The notes beneath the pieces are model-generated. The model saw nothing but the letters and a program-made list of their open reading frames with translations. It was not told the origin of the DNA and searched no databases. A DNA stretch of 64,000 nt from a bacterium (lineage in GTDB: Bacteria; Patescibacteriota; Minisyncoccia; Portnoybacterales; JAKAHB01), in contig JAKAHB010000002.1 in NCBI GenBank assembly GCA_021815315.1, positions 6,427 to 70,426 on the forward strand, written 5' to 3'. The position numbers and the translations under genes were made by a program. Positions 2,830-54,517 of this stretch are shown here, piece after piece (the stretch's first letter is position 1; each line of letters starts with the position of its first letter).

Positions 2830-4068
2830 TTACGGCATAAATTCCTTTAACCACTTCTTCATTTTTCCCACAGTCCCGCCAAAAGAGGGCAGGAGGGGCA
2901 AATTTAAAAGCTTATTTCTCCCCGGTTCCGTTCCTTCAGCCAGCCAAGTTATTAAACCCGCGGCCGTAGCGAAAGAAGGATCGTCAATTTTTTCCACCAC
3001 GCCGTCAAATTCCGAAGGAAAACCGATTTGTATTGGTAGTTTCAACTTATCTTTCATCAAATCGCATAATCCTGGCAATTTAGCTCCGCCTCCCACTAAG
3101 ATCACACCGGCGGGCAAAAGTCCTTCCCGGTCAATTTTTTTGAGTTCTTCGTTGATAAGTTCCGCCAATTCAGCCACTCTCGCCTCAATAATTTCGGCTA
3201 ATTCTTTCTTGGAATGCTTACCCTCGCCGCCCAATTTTTCCAAGTCAACCATGTCTTTGCGATCAATATCCCCGGGTAAACACGTGCCGAATTCAAGTTT
3301 AACTTTTTCAGCCACATCGACAGAAGTTCGTAGCAAAATAGCGATGTCGTTGGTTATGTGCGAACTGCCCACCGGCAAAATTTTTGTTTGCAAGATGTCC
3401 CCTTCTTCAAAGACAACCAGACCAGTAGTCCCGCCTCCAAAATCAACCACCAACGCTCCCAACTCTTTTTGCCTTTTGGTCAAAACAGCGGTGGCCGCCG
3501 CTAACGGACTGACAACTAGGCTAGAAACATCCAGCCCGGCTTCTTCCAAGGCTTTTTTTAGATTTTTGATATAAGGAGTGGAGCTGTCCACCAATAAAAC
3601 ATCCACTTCCAACCTTACCCCGCTCATACCCACCGGGTCTTTAATGGCTGGCTGTCCATCCACCGTAAAACGTTGCGGAATTACATGCACGATTTCTCTG
3701 TTTTGCGGCAAAGAGATGGCCGCAGCCGCTGAAACAGCCCGCTTGGTATCCTCATGAGAGATTTCCCCGTCAGCCCGAGAAACAGCAATCACGCCCTTGC
3801 TTTGGCGTGATTCAATATCGCTCCCCCCAACATTTACAATGACTTCTTCAATAGTGATCCCGCTGGTCCTTTCGGCGCTTTCCACAGCAGCAACAATATT
3901 CTTAACCGCCTCTTCAACGTCAACCACAACTCCACGGCGCAAACCAAAAGAGGGCGAGTGCCCAATGCCCATAATTTGGGGCTTACTTTTTTCGTCTTTT
4001 ATTTGGGCAACAACGCAACGGATATTGGACGTCCCAATATCAAGCCCGACAATATTTTGCTCGCGCAC
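2830..4068 (-). CDS. ftsA: cell division protein FtsA (actin-like ATPase)
   Basis: 412 aa with N-terminal GLDIGTSNIRCVV actin-fold phosphate-1 motif, lying immediately upstream of ftsZ. Confidence 0.9.
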   Translation of the reverse strand: MREQNIVGLDIGTSNIRCVVAQIKDEKSKPQIMGIGHSPSFGLRRGVVVDVEEAVKNIVAAVESAERTSGITIEEVIVNVGGSDIESRQSKGVIAVSRADGEISHEDTKRAVSAAAAISLPQNREIVHVIPQRFTVDGQPAIKDPVGMSGVRLEVDVLLVDSSTPYIKNLKKALEEAGLDVSSLVVSPLAAATAVLTKRQKELGALVVDFGGGTTGLVVFEEGDILQTKILPVGSSHITNDIAILLRTSVDVAEKVKLEFGTCLPGDIDRKDMVDLEKLGGEGKHSKKELAEIIEARVAELAELINEELKKIDREGLLPAGVILVGGGAKLPGLCDLMKDKLKLPIQIGFPSEFDGVVEKIDDPSFATAAGLITWLAEGTEPGRNKLLNLPLLPSFGGTVGKMKKWLKEFMP

Positions 4069-7802: not shown

Positions 7803-8825
7803 ATGAGCCTCAAGAAAAAAGCTTGGGTTTTTGTCTGCTCAACGGTTCTGCTTCTGTCTATGGCTACGCTGGGCGCGTCTCTTTTCTGGCAAAAAATATC
7901 TGGAGTCCTGGCCAAAAGCCAGGCCAATGTGTTCACGGTAGTTAACCGACAAGAAGCCACGTCAACCCTGGCAGGCACGGCTCAAGCCGCTATCACCGAA
8001 ACCAAGAATATCTTGCTGGCAGGTATCCCGGGTGCCGGCAATAGCGCTCCTTTCCTCACCGACACTTTAATGGTTGCCTCAATTAAACCAGATGGGCGCA
8101 TCTATCTTTTTTCCCTCCCCCGCGATTTGCTTGTTTCCCCTCCAGACACGAGCTACTACACAAAAATTAACAGCATCTTCAGCCAATTTCGCGCCGAAGG
8201 AGACCAAGTGGCCGGGGAAAAATTGGCGACCAAGGCTTCCGCAATCTCCGGCTTGGAAATAAAGAACTTCGTCGTCGTTGATCTTAGCTTGCTCAAACAA
8301 GCAGTTGATTTTGTCGGCGGAATAGACGTAACAGTTAAAGAACGGATTACCGATTCTTGTTTCCCCGGCCCTCGTGATACTTGCCTGTCCTATTCCCTGG
8401 AGCCGGGCGACTATCATCTAAACGGCGAAGAAACTTTGAAGCTTGTCCGTTCGCGTCATTCCGGCCAGGGCGATTTTAGTCGTATTTCCAGGCAGCAACA
8501 AGTTTTGGAAGCTCTAAAAAAGAAAGTGGCCGAACAAAATTTTTTCACCAATTTAAACGCTTTCGCCCAAAACATTGGCGGCTTCTTTGAACAAACAAAA
8601 ACAAACCTGTCTCTGGCCGACCTTTGGAGTTTATGGCAAACCATAAAAAACACGGATTCGGAAAAAATTCATGCCTTTACCATCAGCAATCAGCCAGACA
8701 ACGGATTATTGCGCAGTGGCCACTTCACTTTCGGCAACGGGTCGGTCGGCTATGTTTTAACGCCAAAAGCAGGAGCGGAGAACTACGCAGAAATTCATAA
8801 TTTTATCGCGGAAATAATTAAGTGA
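7803..8825 (+). CDS. LytR-CpsA-Psr (LCP) family cell-envelope protein
   Basis: A TM anchor followed by NILLAGIPG...DTLMVASI...LFSLPRD, which is LCP-like. The probable start is the internal ATG at 7803; the ORF track begins at 7740. Confidence 0.7.
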   Translation: MSLKKKAWVFVCSTVLLLSMATLGASLFWQKISGVLAKSQANVFTVVNRQEATSTLAGTAQAAITETKNILLAGIPGAGNSAPFLTDTLMVASIKPDGRIYLFSLPRDLLVSPPDTSYYTKINSIFSQFRAEGDQVAGEKLATKASAISGLEIKNFVVVDLSLLKQAVDFVGGIDVTVKERITDSCFPGPRDTCLSYSLEPGDYHLNGEETLKLVRSRHSGQGDFSRISRQQQVLEALKKKVAEQNFFTNLNAFAQNIGGFFEQTKTNLSLADLWSLWQTIKNTDSEKIHAFTISNQPDNGLLRSGHFTFGNGSVGYVLTPKAGAENYAEIHNFIAEIIK

Positions 8826-21714: not shown

Positions 21715-22482
21715 TTATACCAAATCCATTTTAATGATTTCCTCGGCTAAATCTTTGTAGGCTCGGGCCCCTTTTGACCGCGGATGATATTCTGAAATTA
21801 TTTTACCATGACTTGGCGCTTCCGCCAACTTAACGCATCTTGGGATAACCGCTTCAAAAACCGGTGCCGGAAAATGTTGCTGTACTTCCTTGGCTACTTG
21901 ACGCGATAACCGATTGCGTCGGTCATACATTGTCAAAAGCGCCCCTTTTATTTTAAGGTCCGTCGCTAAATTCTCGTTTATTAAAGTGACTGTCTTAAAA
22001 AGCTGACCCAAACCTTCCAGCGCGTAGTATTCCGTTTGCACCGGAATAATCAATTCTTCCGAAGCTAAAAGTCCGTTCAGGGTCAAAATTCCCAAACTGG
22101 GCGGGCAATCAATGAGAATATAATCGTAACTGGTGCGAATGCGGCTCAAGGCTTTTTTTAGCACAAACTCTCTTTCCGGTTCGTTGACCAGCTCCACGGC
22201 CGCTCCGGCAAGATCGGGGGTAGCTGGCAAAAGTTCGTAACCGGAAATTCTCGTTCTTAAAATCGTTTCTTCCGGTTTTTTCAAGCCGGCCATAACCTGA
22301 TAAAGTCCGTGGTTTAATTCATCCTGGTTCACTCCCAGACCGGAAGTGGCATTGCCTTGCGGGTCCAAATCCACCAGCAAAACATGGCGTCCCAGATGCG
22401 CCAAATAACCGGCTAAATTAACCGAAGTGGTGGTTTTGCCGGTGCCTCCTTTTTGATTGACAATGCCTACAATTCTCGCCAT
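21715..22482 (-). CDS. parA: chromosome partitioning ATPase ParA/Soj
   Basis: Deviant Walker A (KGGTGKTTTSVNLA) starting at MARIVGIVNQ. Start taken as the internal ATG at 22480-22482; the ORF-track extension upstream overlaps the tRNA fragment and is considered read-through. Confidence 0.9.
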   Translation of the reverse strand: MARIVGIVNQKGGTGKTTTSVNLAGYLAHLGRHVLLVDLDPQGNATSGLGVNQDELNHGLYQVMAGLKKPEETILRTRISGYELLPATPDLAGAAVELVNEPEREFVLKKALSRIRTSYDYILIDCPPSLGILTLNGLLASEELIIPVQTEYYALEGLGQLFKTVTLINENLATDLKIKGALLTMYDRRNRLSRQVAKEVQQHFPAPVFEAVIPRCVKLAEAPSHGKIISEYHPRSKGARAYKDLAEEIIKMDLV

Positions 22483-22564
22483 ATATCCGTTATTATAGCA
22501 AATTAAACAAATTGACAAAAGGCCCCAATTAAGGCTAAAATGGAGCAATAGTAAGCCGCGGTGG

Positions 22565-22648
22565 CGGCAAAGAATAAAAACGTTATTGCGAAAATGGAGG
22601 GCGAGTGGCGAAACCGGCAGACCTGCCTGCCGGCAGGCAGGCGCGCAC
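22565..22648 (+). pseudogene. partial duplicate of the tRNA-Leu 5' flank plus 5' half, carrying a 20-nt palindromic insertion
   Basis: About 70 nt (ggcaaagaataaaaacgtta...gggcgagtggcgaaaccggcagac) nearly identical to 22912-22969. The palindrome cctgcctgccggcaggcagg (22622-22641) interrupts the D-stem region. Confidence 0.6.
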
Positions 22649-22651
22649 AAA

Positions 22652-22897
22652 ATGAAAATGCATTATTTCACCTATGCGATTAAAAGCCTGGAGAAAAATT
22701 ATATCTATGTTGGGTTAACAAATAATCCTAAAAGAAGATTTTTTCAGCACCAAAACGGCAAAGAAAAAACGACTTCGCCTTATAGACCGTTCCAAATAAT
22801 TTTGTTAGAAAAATTTAGCACCAGGATTGAAGCAAGAAAGAGAGAAAAATATTTAAAATCAGGTTTTGGGAAAGAATTTTTGAAAACCTTGAGTTAA
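22652..22897 (+). CDS. small GIY-YIG nuclease family protein (YhbQ/UPF0213-like)
   Basis: About 81 aa reading MKMHYFTYAIKS...YIYVGLTNNPKRRFFQH...G, i.e. GIY-YIG motifs. Embedded between duplicated tRNA-Leu segments. Confidence 0.75.
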   Translation: MKMHYFTYAIKSLEKNYIYVGLTNNPKRRFFQHQNGKEKTTSPYRPFQIILLEKFSTRIEARKREKYLKSGFGKEFLKTLS

Positions 22898-22944
22898 TTT
22901 GCCACCACCACGGCAAAGAATAAAAACGTTATCGCGAAAATGGT

Positions 22945-23029
22945 GGGCGAGTGGCGAAACCGGCAGACGCGCACGACTCAAAATCGTGTGAGGCAACTCA
23001 TGAGGGTTCAAGTCCCTCCTCGCCCACCA
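22945..23029 (+). tRNA. tRNA-Leu (anticodon CAA), class II with a long variable arm and encoded CCA
   Basis: Hand-folded cloverleaf. Acceptor GGGCGAG/CTCGCCC, D-arm GCG-AAACCGGCAGA-CGC, anticodon stem CACGA/TCGTG with loop CTCAAAA, variable hairpin TGAG-GCAA-CTCA, T-arm GAGGG-TTCAAGT-CCCTC, then A-CCA. The acceptor helix is extended by an additional ~14-bp flanking inverted repeat (ttatcgcgaaaatggt / accattttcgcgata). Confidence 0.85.
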
Positions 23030-23043
23030 TTTTCGCGATAGCA

Positions 23044-23122
23044 CGCGCACGCCTGCCCGCCTTTGGCGGGACTCAAAATCGTGTGAGGCAACTCGTGAGG
23101 GTTCAACTCCCTCCCGCGGCGC
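23044..23122 (+). pseudogene. tRNA-Leu 3' pseudo-fragment with a hairpin insertion
   Basis: actcaaaatcgtgtgaggcaactcgtgagggttcaactccctcc copies the anticodon-loop-to-T-arm segment with 2 mismatches. A 20-nt hairpin (gcctgcccgcctttggcggg) is inserted in the anticodon stem. The acceptor 3' strand is replaced by cgcggcg. Confidence 0.6.
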
Positions 23123-23162
23123 CAAATATAGTCTAGAACCAACGGCCACTCTTGTTTAAACT

Positions 23163-23187
23163 AAAAACCCCGCGAAGCGGGGTTTTT
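23163..23187. terminator. bidirectional intrinsic terminator
   Basis: aaaaaccccgc-gaag-cggggttttt. Confidence 0.75.
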
Positions 23188-23189
23188 AG

Positions 23190-24350
23190 TTAAGTTCCTT
23201 CCGCTACCCGCCTAAATCCTCCCTTCCCATAGGTGGCCTCAAGTAACCGAGCTAGTTCTAAAAGTTTACCCGAAAGAGCGGCCTTGGCAAAGACCCTAAA
23301 GACATCTTCTTTGGTAGAAAACTTGCCAGGAAATCTTTCGTAGACGGACTTGATAATCATTTGCAAAGTTCTCCTGGCCTCTTTATAACTTCTCGGCAAT
23401 TCTTTTTCTACCTCTTCTCCTCGCGAATTTTTCTTCTCAAATATTAAACAAATTTCGTTTATTTTTTCCGGCCATTGACTTGGTTGGTATTTTCCCGCTA
23501 TGTAACGATTTCTTTTTTCCAGTTCCGGTTGCAATTCCGAAACGTCATAAAAACAAAAATCCTCAAATCTTCTGGTTAGCTCTTCGGTAATCGCTTCGTT
23601 TAAGCTGTCTAAAAATCGCTTTCCCCATTTTTTGGAATGAATGCCCAAGCCAACTCTTCTGATTTCCGCCGGCTCATTTCGCCTTGTTTCCACTGCTTGA
23701 AAAGCATGAAAATGAATTAGCTCGTGAGTAGTTATGCCCGCCTGGAACAACAGGTTATCTTTGAGTCTCTCCAGAGGCAAATTTTGTTTCAGTCCCACTC
23801 TTTGCAAAGATGGCCTATAAAAACCTTTGCTGCGAAGGGCCGATAGGGCTGAAAAATCCGACGCCTGTGCCCCTTCTTTGCTTAAATCAACAAGATGAAA
23901 GTGCTCCGGCTTTATCTCCCCCACTGGTTGCCCTCCGTAGGCGCGGATAAATTCTGGCATTTTTTTGATTATTGTTTCCAACACTCTTGTCCGCTCCGGA
24001 GTTTTTTCTATCTCAAAGCTTTCCGGAGTCTGATCAACAAATTTCTGCTGATAATGAAGATCGGCAGCTTTTACTTCGGCGGGATCGGGGCCAATAATCC
24101 TAGAAATGCCGTGCTGTCTGAAGCCCTCGTTATTGATTTGATGACGCGCCATATCCGCCAATAGCGCCTTCTTTCTTTCTTGAATCTCGTTTTGTAATTC
24201 TTGATACCTAGGTCTTTCCAGCGGGGTTATTTCCTCTTGACCTGCTCCAAGACCAAAGATAGAATCAAGAATTTCCTGGGCGCTAATTCCGCCCTTGGGT
24301 TTTTTGTCCTTTTCATTAACTGGGGAGATGTCGCCTGGTTCCTTTTCCAT
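23190..24350 (-). CDS. hypothetical protein with an HExxH zinc-metallopeptidase-like motif
   Basis: 386 aa containing ITTHELIHFHAF with acidic residues downstream. No family assigned. Confidence 0.4.
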   Translation of the reverse strand: MEKEPGDISPVNEKDKKPKGGISAQEILDSIFGLGAGQEEITPLERPRYQELQNEIQERKKALLADMARHQINNEGFRQHGISRIIGPDPAEVKAADLHYQQKFVDQTPESFEIEKTPERTRVLETIIKKMPEFIRAYGGQPVGEIKPEHFHLVDLSKEGAQASDFSALSALRSKGFYRPSLQRVGLKQNLPLERLKDNLLFQAGITTHELIHFHAFQAVETRRNEPAEIRRVGLGIHSKKWGKRFLDSLNEAITEELTRRFEDFCFYDVSELQPELEKRNRYIAGKYQPSQWPEKINEICLIFEKKNSRGEEVEKELPRSYKEARRTLQMIIKSVYERFPGKFSTKEDVFRVFAKAALSGKLLELARLLEATYGKGGFRRVAEGT

Positions 24351-54054: not shown

Positions 54055-54435
54055 GGGGACGCTAGGCTTCGACAGTCTGTCTAGCTTAGTATTCAAGCCG
54101 AGTACGCAGGAATCTCGCAAAACTTCTTGCAGTCTCACAAATGCCAACTTTATGGCTAGAGTGAAGAGCGCTTTCAGCGTCCCTTCATTCGCTACCGCTT
54201 TAGCTTAAAAACCTAGAGCCATCCGACTTACGGATACTCAATAAGTAAGATCCGGGTGTCATTTCATTGAGTTAGGCTAGGTCACGCTGTGGGATTTAGC
54301 CAAAACCAAAACAGCTACGGTTAAAAGATTTTGGTCCGCTTATATCTTCTAACCCGAACAAATTAAGCGGAATAAGCTTGTAAAATTACTAAGTAATGCC
54401 TGACTGGACAGGGGTTCAATTCCCCTCGTCTCCAC
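54055..54435 (+). ncRNA. ssrA: tmRNA (transfer-messenger RNA)
   Basis: 5' GGGGACGCUAGGCUUCGACAG resembles the tmRNA 5' end. 3' GGACAGGGGUUCAAUUCCCCUCGUCUCCACC gives a tRNA-Ala-like T-arm and acceptor with a G3-U70 pair. An internal tag ORF reads ...ARVKSAFSVPSFATALA-stop (about 54150-54208). Sits directly after smpB. Confidence 0.85.
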
Positions 54436-54517
54436 CGCGTTCGGGTTTAATGTTCTGCTTGAACGCGAATTAAAGACCAAGAACCCCCATTAAAGTCCAC
54501 CATTAAATTAACCATTC

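What the first reader, a model, noticed from the sequence alone, without database searches (positions are those of the whole stretch)
22558..23125. Rearranged tRNA-Leu(CAA) locus: 5' pseudo-copy, GIY-YIG nuclease gene, intact tRNA, then a 3' pseudo-fragment, both fragments carrying palindromic hairpin insertions
Read directly from the sequence. About 70 nt, covering the upstream flank plus the 5' half of the tRNA, occur twice in direct orientation (22565-22622 and 22912-22969, about 347 nt apart). The first copy is cut short in the D-stem by a perfect 20-nt palindrome (cctgcctgccggcaggcagg) and is followed at once by an 81-aa GIY-YIG (YhbQ-like) ORF. Then comes an intact tRNA-Leu(CAA) (22945-23029) whose acceptor helix is extended by an extra ~14-bp flanking inverted repeat. 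About 45 nt downstream lies a third, 3'-half copy (anticodon loop through T-arm, 2 mismatches). It has a different 20-nt hairpin (gcctgcccgcctttggcggg) inserted in its anticodon stem and a non-matching acceptor strand. This looks like the footprint of repeated recombination or integration at a tRNA gene, with a small GIY-YIG nuclease as the only cargo. The GIY-YIG gene may be a selfish or homing-like element. The hairpin insertions may be miniature palindromic elements that target the same tRNA positions. The extended acceptor helix on the intact copy is unusual for a bacterial pre-tRNA.
Basis: seen in the sequence. Interest (0 to 1): 0.7.

Follow-up and report, generated by a model that had tools for sequence, protein, structure and literature searches.

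The report
Selfish nuclease nested in tRNA gene
A tRNA-Leu gene has been broken up and rebuilt around a tiny GIY-YIG nuclease gene and a 20-base palindrome, and the same three-part arrangement recurs in dozens of unrelated bacteria, which points to a widespread selfish element that I could not find described.

Summary
I add one: 12 nt at 22555-22566 form the missing 5' end of the "non-matching" 3' fragment. A resident tRNA-Leu(CAA) therefore brackets the whole locus, and the intact tRNA sits inside it.

The arrangement is not unique. In 43 of 47 genomes from several phyla, homologues of this 81-aa GIY-YIG gene lie directly beside a tRNA gene on the same strand. Most have a partial copy of that tRNA on the other side of the gene. 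That copy carries a clean insertion of the same 20-nt palindrome, CCTGCCTGCCGGCAGGCAGG (PAL). The window's second hairpin is a PAL variant.

PAL also occurs at more than 150 unrelated, mostly intergenic sites in metagenomes and viral contigs. This GIY-YIG family is the only protein family that recurs near it. The nuclease gene is under strong purifying selection (dN/dS about 0.08). Its sequences group by tRNA type more than by phylum.

Best reading: a selfish, homing-like nuclease/palindrome element living inside tRNA genes. How it moves is inferred, not shown. Nine literature searches found no description of it. The closest known analogue is phage T4/T6 SegB.

The parts
22512..22541 (+). Promoter-like site (TTGACA, 18-nt spacer, TAAAAT; 11 of 12 matches) just upstream of the outer tRNA 5' end. 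It probably drives the whole composite unit.
   Evidence: a consensus match only
22555..22566 (+). Outermost remnant of the resident tRNA-Leu(CAA) 'R', positions 1-12 (GCCGCGG TG GCG). Its acceptor strand pairs 7/7 with 23114-23120.
22565..22622 (+). 5' pseudo-copy: a 58-nt direct repeat of the leader 'F' plus positions 1-23 of the intact tRNA. It is 97% identical to 22911-22968.
22622..22641 (.). PAL, the perfect 20-nt palindrome CCTGCCTGCCGGCAGGCAGG. It is a clean insertion between tRNA positions 23 and 24 of the pseudo-copy.
22642..22648 (+). Resumption of tRNA homology (CGCGCAC, positions 24-30) between PAL and the ORF.
22652..22897 (+). Minimal GIY-YIG nuclease gene: 81 aa, or 79 aa from the second ATG at 22658. 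It is Slx1/UPF0213-like, with no extra DNA-binding domain.
22911..22944 (+). Leader 'F' of the intact tRNA. Bases 22930-22944 form the left arm of the 15-bp extension of the acceptor helix.
22945..23029 (+). Intact tRNA-Leu(CAA) 'T' (acceptor GGGCGAG/CTCGCCC, discriminator A, encoded CCA).
23026..23040 (+). Right arm of the helix extension (ACCATTTTCGCGATA), overlapping the discriminator and CCA.
23044..23051 (+). CGCGCACG, positions 24-31 of the disrupted resident tRNA. It is a direct repeat of 22642-22648.
   Evidence: (D10)
23052..23070 (.). PAL', the 19-nt hairpin CCTGCCCGCCTTTGGCGGG. Its left arm matches PAL at 9 of 10 bases. It is shared with L050, and the same left arm occurs in L137. 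It is inserted in the anticodon stem of the 3' fragment.
23071..23124 (+). 3' part of the resident tRNA 'R': anticodon loop to CCA, with acceptor strand CCGCGGC and discriminator G. Bases 23070-23114 are 96% identical to the intact copy.
23159..23191 (.). Perfect 15-bp hairpin with flanking A and T runs. It is a likely bidirectional terminator closing the unit.
   Evidence: I4

Best explanation
The locus is a tRNA-Leu(CAA) gene colonised by one member of a widespread selfish element. The element has two linked parts: a minimal GIY-YIG nuclease gene of about 80 aa (Slx1/UPF0213-like) and a 20-bp palindrome, PAL.

Shown:
- The nuclease gene sits inside the tRNA transcription unit.
- One intact tRNA is always kept beside it.
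- The displaced tRNA pieces remain as partial copies that carry PAL.

Inferred history of this window:
1. The resident tRNA (R, acceptor GCCGCGG) was split. Its 5' part received PAL and the nuclease gene.
2. A replacement tRNA (T, acceptor GGGCGAG, clamped by a 15-bp leader/trailer helix) took over the function. R's 3' part, carrying a PAL variant, was pushed downstream.
3. Later gene conversion from T overwrote parts of both remnants. This produced the 58-nt and 45-nt repeats.

Inferred mechanism:
- The nuclease makes breaks at or near PAL or the tRNA DNA.
- Repair by homologous recombination uses the highly conserved tRNA sequence as portable homology arms.
- This copies the gene into the same tRNA type in new genomes and generates partial and tandem duplications, as SegB does in phage T6.
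- PAL is most likely the nuclease's cognate palindromic site, and it is itself copied to other places.
- Because the only working tRNA copy is linked to the nuclease gene, the host cannot easily lose the element.
For: Architecture:
- 43 of 47 genome loci with a homologue have a same-strand tRNA directly beside the gene (Leu, Asn, Lys, Thr, Ser, Cys, Pro). Three of the four exceptions are cut by contig ends.
- About 30 loci have a 5' copy of that same tRNA upstream of the ORF.
- Tandem arrays of [fragment+PAL+ORF] units occur in L023, L208 and L004.

PAL:
- PAL (up to 4 mismatches) is present in 37 of 47 loci. It is a clean insertion in the pseudo-copy, 10-60 nt before the ORF.
- Loci that seemed to lack PAL carry truncated or variant forms.
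- 17 of 150 family representatives, drawn from 50%-identity clusters of about 15 billion proteins, carry PAL-encoded peptides in mis-called N-termini.
- This GIY-YIG family is the only recurrent protein family within 1.2 kb of PAL in 155 PAL-selected loci.
- PAL is 20/20 identical between the window and L050, although synonymous sites differ at 49%.

Nuclease gene:
- dN/dS is 0.08-0.11.
- The catalytic Tyr, Tyr, Arg, His and Glu are conserved in 46 sequences.

Horizontal spread with tRNA fidelity:
- Identity to Bacteroidota and Nitrospirota proteins that sit beside tRNA-Leu is 69-72%. This exceeds the 58.6% ParA identity to the syntenic relative from the same phylum (Patescibacteria), L206.
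- Patescibacteria Leu-type versus other-phyla Leu-type proteins average 59%. Patescibacteria Leu-type versus Patescibacteria non-Leu types average 50%.

History of this locus:
- The outer tRNA reconstructs perfectly.
- L050 has the same composite with a decayed outer 3' fragment. The syntenic L206 has the simple form.

Precedent: the SegB GIY-YIG endonuclease cleaves within tRNA genes, co-localises with tRNAs and drives tandem tRNA+segB amplification that depends on homologous recombination (PMC13096335, read).
Against: - No empty site, circle junction or recent transfer was recovered, so mobility is inferred from distribution only.
- In the syntenic relative L206 the element sits at the same ParA-adjacent tRNA. 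That is compatible with long vertical inheritance in this lineage.
- More than 90% of PAL sites have no GIY-YIG within 500 nt. PAL could therefore be moved by something else.
- The protein has no DNA-binding domain, so sequence-specific recognition of a 20-bp site is unproven.
- The tRNA-type clustering comes from a sample seeded with this window's protein, which is a bias.
- A break at PAL repaired from the intact tRNA should erase PAL, yet PAL persists.
- The intact tRNA T shares its anticodon arm, variable arm and T-stem with R. 'Imported replacement' therefore needs later homogenisation.
Confidence: 0.6

Rival explanations
1. PAL is an independent mobile palindrome, moved by some other unknown machinery. 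It simply accumulates in the neutral DNA of tRNA pseudo-copies. The GIY-YIG gene is a separate tRNA-associated homing endonuclease with no functional link to PAL.
For: Only 9 of 127 PAL sites in metagenome loci, and 1 of 35 viral stretches, have the GIY-YIG gene within 500 nt. PAL occurs in hosts of 29-71% GC with no flank consensus. Nested tRNA-plus-PAL loci exist without any GIY-YIG ORF (L120, L164, L137).
Against: Essentially every GIY-YIG locus has PAL or a derivative 10-60 nt upstream of the ORF. I estimate PAL density there at about 300 times its density in the rest of the same loci. No other protein family recurs near PAL. The variant CCTGTCTGCCGACAGGCAGG is confined to one group of loci. 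PAL is fully conserved at a neutral divergence of 0.49.
Confidence: 0.17
2. The small GIY-YIG protein is a host factor, for example a Slx1-like repair nuclease or a tRNA-locus maintenance or regulatory protein. It is co-transcribed with tRNAs. PAL is its operator or an mRNA-stabilising 5' hairpin. The partial tRNA copies are by-products of recombination at a fragile, highly transcribed site.
For: Purifying selection is strong. The gene is always on the same strand as the tRNA and inside its transcription unit, and here a single promoter-like site and a single terminator bracket the unit. The prokaryotic Slx1-like family was proposed to be ancient and vertically inherited (PMC1564403). The element sits at the same locus in the syntenic L206.
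Against: A host factor would not be expected beside many different tRNA types with tRNA scars, tandem unit arrays and cross-phylum identity above that of ParA. An operator role does not explain PAL at more than 150 unrelated sites. A housekeeping gene has no need to split an essential tRNA gene.
Confidence: 0.15
3. The tRNA fragments are attL/attR-type scars of a decayed integrase-driven genomic island or prophage that targeted tRNA-Leu. The GIY-YIG gene is leftover cargo.
For: tRNA genes are classic integration sites, and integration leaves partial tRNA duplicates (general knowledge). There is a duplicated 3' part downstream of the intact tRNA.
Against: There is no integrase. The neighbours are ParA, ParB and a 386-aa ORF with no Pfam match. 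The whole insert is about 480 nt. The main duplication is of the 5' half. The same minimal ORF-only architecture recurs in about 40 genomes.
Confidence: 0.03
4. Assembly artefact: a chimeric or mis-joined contig, or an adapter-like palindrome introduced during sequencing.
For: PAL is an identical 20-mer in very different genomes with no target duplication, which at first looks technical.
Against: The same architecture appears in independent assemblies, including cultured isolates of Algoriphagus, Flagellimonas and Salinimicrobium, at syntenic positions and with heritable variants. PAL sites are depleted in ORFs, 31% against 73% for random positions, as expected under selection. A related contig (L050) reproduces the composite.
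Confidence: 0.01

Closest known systems
SegB, the free-standing GIY-YIG homing endonuclease in the tRNA gene cluster of phages T4 and T6
   Same: It is a GIY-YIG nuclease gene embedded among tRNA genes. It cleaves within tRNA genes, is widely co-localised with tRNAs and is transferred horizontally. It drives tandem tRNA+nuclease amplification through breaks plus homologous recombination, using microhomology between the tRNA 5' end and the gene's 3' end (PMC13096335). Tandem [fragment+ORF] units and ORF ends that overlap the tRNA start are seen here too.
   Different: SegB is a phage protein and is larger. The paper's 28-aa C-terminal truncation variant lost the growth toxicity of the wild type. 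The protein here is about 80 aa, consists of the catalytic core only, is chromosomal in bacteria, and is closest to the Slx1/UPF0213 branch. No INPHARED phage record encodes a homologue. SegB has no known associated palindrome and does not split a tRNA gene.
REP elements and their REP-associated tyrosine transposases (RAYTs)
   Same: A short palindrome is dispersed in intergenic DNA, and a single small nuclease gene is itself flanked by copies of that palindrome (general knowledge, from memory). Here PAL flanks the gene upstream and PAL' flanks it downstream. PAL is mostly intergenic.
   Different: The enzyme here is GIY-YIG and not an HUH/Y1 transposase. PAL is one nearly invariant 20-mer across phyla and viral contigs, whereas REPs are species-specific. 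The gene lives in tRNA genes. Per-genome copy number of PAL is unknown.
Prokaryotic Slx1-like / UPF0213 (YhbQ, EF2693) minimal GIY-YIG proteins
   Same: Both are stand-alone GIY-YIG cores of about 80-100 aa. The nearest solved structure is 1ywl (E=9e-6). The family is described as the minimal GIY-YIG variant of unknown function (PMC1564403).
   Different: That family was regarded as vertically inherited repair proteins. Neither a tRNA association nor a palindrome association appears in that paper. No NCBIfam model matches the window protein. The C-terminal motif EK-LKSGxGKEFLK is specific to this clade.
Integrase-type genomic islands and prophages at tRNA genes
   Same: The element sits in a tRNA gene, one functional tRNA is preserved, and a partial duplicate is left behind.
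   Different: There is no integrase. The duplicated part is mainly the 5' half. The insert is only about 0.3-0.5 kb. The junctions vary, which fits recombination better than a fixed att core.
Mobile GC-rich palindromes of fungal mitochondria (yeast GC clusters, Neurospora PstI palindromes)
   Same: These are short GC-rich palindromes inserted at many sites, including near tRNA genes, in genomes rich in GIY-YIG homing endonucleases (recalled from memory; the fungal mitochondrial papers listed touch on this).
   Different: They are organellar and lineage-specific in sequence. No defined link to a particular nuclease gene is known.

Membership tests
GIY-YIG nuclease superfamily (Pfam PF01541) | Significant match to the domain model across its full length | tested here: met
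   E=1.8e-17, 63.8 bits against a cut-off of 22.6; residues 5-73 match profile positions 2-73 of 78
GIY-YIG nuclease superfamily (Pfam PF01541) | Conserved catalytic residues: the two Tyr of the GIY and YIG motifs, plus Arg, His and Glu | tested here: met
   The 46-sequence alignment has invariant or near-invariant Y..IY(V)G, R, H and R..AR..EK. dN/dS is 0.08-0.11. Activity itself was not tested.
Slx1-like / UPF0213 minimal GIY-YIG branch | Stand-alone catalytic core with no auxiliary domain, and closest to solved UPF0213 structures | tested here: met
   81 aa with only the GIY-YIG domain. The single PDB sequence match is 1ywl, UPF0213 EF2693, E=9e-6.
Slx1-like / UPF0213 minimal GIY-YIG branch | Structure-specific cleavage of branched or hairpin DNA | not testable with these tools
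   Needs a nuclease assay on PAL cruciform or hairpin substrates and on flap substrates
Free-standing homing endonuclease gene (Seg/Mob type) | Gene inserted between or within conserved genes, with patchy, horizontally spread distribution | tested here: met
   It lies beside tRNAs in several phyla. Cross-phylum identity is 69-72%, above the 58.6% ParA identity within Patescibacteria.
Free-standing homing endonuclease gene (Seg/Mob type) | Nuclease core linked to a separate DNA-binding domain that gives long-site specificity | tested here: not met
   There is no domain beyond the core
Free-standing homing endonuclease gene (Seg/Mob type) | Cleaves the allele that lacks the gene and is copied into it | not testable with these tools
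   No empty allele was recovered. Needs cleavage and co-culture or transformation assays.
REP/RAYT-type palindrome-nuclease pair | Nuclease gene flanked by copies of the dispersed palindrome | tested here: met
   PAL is upstream in about 40 loci and is also downstream in the window, L009, L023, L036 and L040
REP/RAYT-type palindrome-nuclease pair | Many intergenic copies of the palindrome in genomes that carry the gene | tested here: inconclusive
   PAL is mostly intergenic and widespread. Only 3-4 extra copies were seen in about 200 kb around GIY-YIG genes, and none elsewhere in this 64-kb window. A whole-genome test was not possible.
REP/RAYT-type palindrome-nuclease pair | HUH/Y1 transposase fold | tested here: not met
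   The protein is GIY-YIG
Integrase-driven island at a tRNA gene | Tyrosine or serine recombinase gene next to the tRNA | tested here: not met
   The neighbours are ParA, ParB and an ORF with no Pfam match
Group I intron in tRNA-Leu | Ribozyme core interrupting the anticodon loop | tested here: not met
   A permissive Rfam scan of 22300-23400 found only the tRNA above threshold. The insert is almost entirely ORF.
Bacterial tRNA-Leu (the intact copy) | Cloverleaf with long variable arm, CAA anticodon and 7-bp acceptor stem | tested here: met
   ARAGORN, Rfam 56.7 bits, folds as a cloverleaf inside the long helix

The most novel reading that the evidence does not exclude
PAL plus the minimal GIY-YIG nuclease is a two-part mobile system. 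A Slx1-like nuclease recognises one 20-bp palindrome that is conserved from Patescibacteria to Bacteroidota and viral contigs, and mobilises it. This would be a GIY-YIG counterpart of the REP/RAYT pair. The nuclease gene secures itself by nesting in essential tRNA genes, wrecking the resident copy and keeping the only working tRNA physically linked to itself. This would also give a first biological role to part of the long-uncharacterised UPF0213/YhbQ-like family.
Probability: 0.3. Interest if true: 0.9.

Novelty: new variant of a known kind. Interest (0 to 1): 0.8.

Why it matters
Four reasons, if the reading holds.
- It defines a widespread class of selfish element in bacterial chromosomes that I could not find described. 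The family has 3818 clusters at 50% identity at E<=1e-3. The element uses the universal conservation of tRNA sequence to cross phylum boundaries.
- It links an orphan family of minimal GIY-YIG nucleases to a concrete DNA partner, a single 20-bp palindrome. That link can be tested directly in vitro.
- It explains recurrent annotation errors. These include over-long 'GIY-YIG' proteins whose N-termini are translated tRNA and PAL sequence, tRNA pseudo-fragments, and odd tRNA predictions with inserts.
- A very small nuclease with a long, exact palindromic site would be of practical interest as a tool.

Tried and rejected
- PAL targets hairpin loops in general. Rejected: with PAL removed, the junction lies in a predicted hairpin loop at 17.7% of 158 sites and at 18.1% of 1472 random positions.
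- PAL is a sequencing or assembly artefact. Rejected: it is depleted in ORFs, has heritable variants, and is present in isolate genomes.
- PAL splits the direct repeats in the middle to block recombinational loss. Not supported: PAL usually lies near the ORF-proximal end of the duplicated segment, and in this window 58 nt of uninterrupted repeat remain.
- The ORF is translated through PAL as a longer protein. Rejected: the PAL-to-ATG spacing is not constant modulo 3, and stop codons intervene.
- The PAL'-like match at window 2875-2893 lies inside a long open reading frame (read from the sequence) and is a chance similarity.
- Other RNA families. The Rfam permissive scan gave only sub-threshold chance hits, for example DUF1874 RNA at 21.8 bits against a gathering score of 42.
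- Databases. NCBIfam gave no family. PHROGs gave only weak 'homing endonuclease' hits. No homologue is encoded in INPHARED phage records. The exact protein is not in the contig index.
- Literature. Nine full-text searches, including the PAL sequence itself, found no description of this architecture.
- The long leader/trailer helix as a marker of imported tRNA cassettes. Not upheld: in L129 the left arm is also in the 5' pseudo-copy, so it was the native leader.
Full report
**1.

- A 58-nt direct repeat at 22565-22622 and 22911-22968, 97% identical.
- A 45-nt direct repeat at 22975-23019 and 23070-23114, 96% identical.
- A perfect 22-bp inverted repeat at 22930-22951 / 23019-23040, made of the acceptor stem plus a 15-bp extension that includes the CCA.
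- The perfect 20-nt palindrome CCTGCCTGCCGGCAGGCAGG at 22622-22641. I call it PAL.

ARAGORN and Rfam find one intact tRNA-Leu(CAA) at 22945-23029. The 81-aa ORF at 22652-22897 is a GIY-YIG domain and nothing else. Its nearest solved relative is the UPF0213 protein EF2693, PDB 1ywl. None of the repeats is expected by chance.

**2.

GCCGCGGTGGCG at 22555-22566 lies immediately left of the 58-nt repeat. It is tRNA positions 1-12. Its first seven bases pair perfectly with CCGCGGC at 23114-23120, the 'non-matching' acceptor strand of the 3' fragment. I joined the outer pieces, removed the 19-nt hairpin and borrowed the D-loop from the intact copy. The result is a flawless tRNA-Leu(CAA).

A resident tRNA gene, R, therefore brackets the whole locus. 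The intact tRNA, T, has a different acceptor stem (GGGCGAG) and lies inside R. A promoter-like site at 22512-22541 and a strong hairpin at 23159-23191 bracket the composite. It could therefore be a single transcription unit.

**3. The arrangement is not a one-off**

A scan of one genome per species found 47 loci that encode a homologue of the small protein. The hosts include Patescibacteria, Bacteroidota, Ignavibacteria, Nitrospirota, Omnitrophota and others.
- In 43 of the 47, a tRNA gene lies directly beside the ORF on the same strand. Usually it lies from a few bases of overlap to about 100 nt downstream of the ORF. Three of the four exceptions are cut by contig ends.
- Leu isoacceptors dominate. 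Asn, Lys, Thr, Ser, Cys and Pro also occur.
- In about 30 loci, the first 15-46 nt of that same tRNA, often with a few bases of its leader, are repeated upstream of the ORF.
- In five loci the order is reversed: intact tRNA, then ORF, then 3' fragments.
- In several loci the ORF's start codon lies in the remnant of the anticodon arm, or its stop codon lies inside the first ten bases of the intact tRNA.
- Tandem arrays of [fragment+PAL+ORF] or [fragment+PAL] units occur in L023, L208 and L004.

**4. The palindrome is a specific, conserved partner**

- The identical 20-mer, or a form with up to 4 mismatches, is present in 37 of the 47 loci.
- In the loci where its flanks could be aligned, it is a clean insertion inside the tRNA pseudo-copy, with tRNA homology continuing on both sides.
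- Its linear position varies: 9/10, 15/16, 20/21, 23/24 (as here), about 30-31, and the T-loop.
- Loci that seemed to lack it carry truncated or variant forms.
- The window's second hairpin, CCTGCCCGCCTTTGGCGGG, shares 9 of 10 bases with PAL's left arm and is conserved in the close relative L050. The same left arm occurs in a tRNA-Ser pseudo-copy in L137. A perfect PAL sits one base away in the same stem of a tRNA-Leu(CAA) 3' copy in L009.
- Independent check: 17 of the 150 best family representatives, from 50%-identity clusters of about 15 billion proteins, carry PAL-encoded peptides (LPAGRQ, PACRQA or CLPAGR) in mis-called N-terminal extensions. Others begin with translated tRNA sequence.

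**5. PAL is also much more widespread than the nuclease gene**

- Host GC content ranges from 29% to 71%. There is no target duplication and no flank consensus.
- Only about 7% of these sites have the GIY-YIG gene within 500 nt.
- The sites are real. They are depleted in ORFs (31% spanned by an open frame against 73% for random positions). Variants are inherited among related isolates.
- Among all ORFs within 1.2 kb of PAL, the only family that recurs across loci is this GIY-YIG family.
- PAL is not preferentially at hairpin tips.
- It also sits in the variable loop of a tRNA-Met on two viral contigs.
- Nested tRNA-in-tRNA loci that carry PAL but no ORF also exist (L120, L164, L137).

**6. History of this particular locus**

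| Locus | Relation to window | State |
|---|---|---|
| L206 (Spechtbacterales MAG) | Same ParB-ParA neighbourhood; nuclease 75% identical, ParA 58.6% | Simple form: 5' copy (positions 1-23), PAL, positions 24-44, ORF, intact tRNA |
| L050 | Nuclease 85-87% identical | Same composite as the window |

L050 has the following parts, in order:
- A 5' fragment of R (acceptor GCCGAGG), followed by PAL and CGCGCAC.
- The ORF.
- T with its leader/trailer helix.
- CGCGCACG, then PAL', then a 3' fragment of R that is badly decayed.

From these I infer three steps.
1. The composite (R split, with T inside it) predates the split between the window and L050.
2. The fragments are scars and not halves of a working split tRNA.
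3. In the window lineage, gene conversion from T overwrote the R 3' fragment. This gave the 45-nt repeat, which still carries the two bases seen in L050's T. It also inserted 43 nt (F plus T positions 1-12) into the R 5' fragment, which gave the 58-nt repeat.

Both conversion tracts end at PAL or PAL'.

**7. The protein**

- The catalytic Tyr, Tyr, Arg, His and Glu are conserved across 46 homologues, as is a clade-specific C-terminal motif EK-LKSGxGKEFLK.
- dN/dS against L050 and L048 is 0.08-0.09, with 49-61% of synonymous sites changed.
- At that divergence, PAL is still 20/20 identical and the block F'-CGCGCACG-PAL' is 49/51 identical.
- Identity to proteins of Bacteroidota and Nitrospirota that sit beside tRNA-Leu is 69-72%, above the ParA identity to the syntenic Patescibacteria relative L206.
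- Leu-type proteins from different phyla resemble each other (59%) more than Leu-type and non-Leu-type proteins within Patescibacteria do (50%).
- The sample was seeded with this protein, so that contrast needs an unbiased repeat.

**8. How it most likely works**

Shown:
- The recurrent three-part architecture.
- The clean PAL insertions.
- The nested R/T structure.
- The tandem arrays.
- The selection on the ORF and on PAL.

Inferred:
- The nuclease makes breaks at PAL and/or in tRNA DNA. Repair by homologous recombination uses the conserved tRNA sequence as homology arms.
- This would explain four things: fidelity to tRNA type, cross-phylum spread, partial duplications with variable junctions, and tandem units.
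- Integration of a unit [tRNA fragment with PAL + ORF] by a single crossover upstream of PAL gives the observed order: PAL-bearing partial copy, then ORF, then intact tRNA. Crossovers downstream of PAL would put PAL into the only full-length tRNA and would be lethal. That would explain why PAL is always in the partial copy.
- Keeping the only working tRNA linked to the nuclease gene would make the element hard to lose.
- PAL is most simply the cognate site of a dimeric minimal nuclease, or a cruciform or hairpin substrate for a Slx1-like enzyme. It would be copied elsewhere in trans.

I could not test any of these steps.

**9. The extended acceptor helix**

- Five of 91 tRNAs in the collected loci have a 14-17-bp leader/trailer helix: the window, L050, tRNA-Cys in L028, tRNA-Asn in L129 and tRNA-Ala in L120. 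All the others have 6 bp or fewer.
- All five lie next to PAL. The sample is biased toward such loci, so I do not claim an association.
- Between the window and L050, one pair changed compensatorily (G-C to A-T).
- The RNA is predicted to fold as a cloverleaf closed by the long helix (z = -6.3).
- A plausible role is to insulate the real tRNA from mispairing with the pseudo-fragments on the same transcript. This is unproven. In L129 the left arm was already the native leader.

**10. Comparison with known systems and novelty**

- SegB of phages T4 and T6 is the closest functional analogue. It is a free-standing GIY-YIG endonuclease that cleaves within tRNA genes, co-localises with tRNAs across phages, and drives recombination-dependent tandem amplification of tRNA+segB units (PMC13096335).
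- The present family differs from SegB in being a catalytic core of about 80 aa on the Slx1/UPF0213 branch. It is chromosomal, it splits the tRNA gene, and it is tied to one palindrome.
- The palindrome/nuclease pairing resembles REP/RAYT, but the enzyme fold is different and the repeat sequence is shared across phyla.
- The 2006 survey of the GIY-YIG superfamily treated prokaryotic Slx1-like proteins as vertically inherited minimal nucleases and mentions no tRNA or palindrome link (PMC1564403).
- Nine full-text searches found nothing on this architecture. The library lacks most subscription journals, so prior description cannot be excluded.
- I rate it a new variant of known kinds (free-standing homing endonuclease; palindrome-nuclease pair), and the window as one well-preserved, unusually layered member.

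Noticed in passing
L052 about 8570-8660; L075 2239-2330: On two viral contigs a tRNA-Met(CAT) carries PAL as a clean insertion in its variable loop, and the tRNA is otherwise intact. ARAGORN still calls a 92-nt tRNA-Met in L075. It might still function as a tRNA with an extra arm.
   Followed up: partly
L120 200-380; L164 1-240; L137 7130-7400: Nested tRNA-in-tRNA loci with PAL but no GIY-YIG ORF nearby. An intact tRNA (Ala, Val or Ser) lies beside partial copies of the same isoacceptor; in L120 and L164 the copies flank it on both sides, in L137 only a 3' copy was seen. In L120 the disrupted copy differs from the intact one by a compensatory T-stem pair, so it was once a separate functional allele.
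   Followed up: partly
window 22930-23040; L050 509-627; L028 2384-2486; L129 1102-1203; L120 218-318: A 14-17-bp leader/trailer helix extends the acceptor stem of the intact tRNA in five loci (four tRNA types). The arm sequences are unrelated between loci. All other tRNAs examined have 6 bp or fewer.
   Followed up: partly
P0001 (138 aa), P0010 (133 aa), P0121, P0127, P0128, P0138, P0139 and others: Many database entries for this family are over-long. Their N-termini are translations of tRNA fragments (AELVD, PRWRN, RFES or GFES) and of PAL (LPAGRQ, PACRQA or CLPAGR). This is a systematic gene-calling error.
   Followed up: yes
L007 2235-2300; L004 2740-2870: Algoriphagus tRNA pseudo-copies carry other small palindromic insertions besides PAL, for example TCCCGATAGTTATCGGGA and CCTGCATCCCGAAGGGATG. 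Several families of mini-palindromes seem to populate these scars.
   Followed up: no
L048 2830-2936: After the intact tRNA-Leu comes an insert of about 95 nt with two internal hairpins, followed by a duplicate of the tRNA's last 17 nt or so. This is a different small insertion, without PAL, at the tRNA 3' end.
   Followed up: no
L050 50-178: A roughly 21-bp inverted repeat (TTGCGTATGTAATTTCTG... / ...CAGAAATTACATACGCAA) encloses about 90 nt just upstream of the 5' tRNA fragment. It is absent from the window.
   Followed up: no
L036 2735-2750; L040 2715-2735; L044 2735-2760; L129 1095-1120: The nuclease ORF's stop codon lies inside the first 10 nt of the downstream tRNA. RNase P cleavage of a co-transcript would therefore remove the stop codon, which could couple nuclease expression to tRNA processing.
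   Followed up: no
window 54055-54436; whole window: A tmRNA gene (tag ANFMARVKSAFSVPSFATALA) is present. The tRNA-Leu is the only tRNA gene in the 64 kb.
   Followed up: no
window 23190-24350 (-): The 386-aa ORF that converges on the locus has no Pfam match.
   Followed up: no
L071, L078, L079 (one 29.5-kb viral contig): Six exact PAL copies lie on one contig, several of them embedded in larger repeated units that occur in both orientations. No GIY-YIG gene is present in the parts held.
   Followed up: partly
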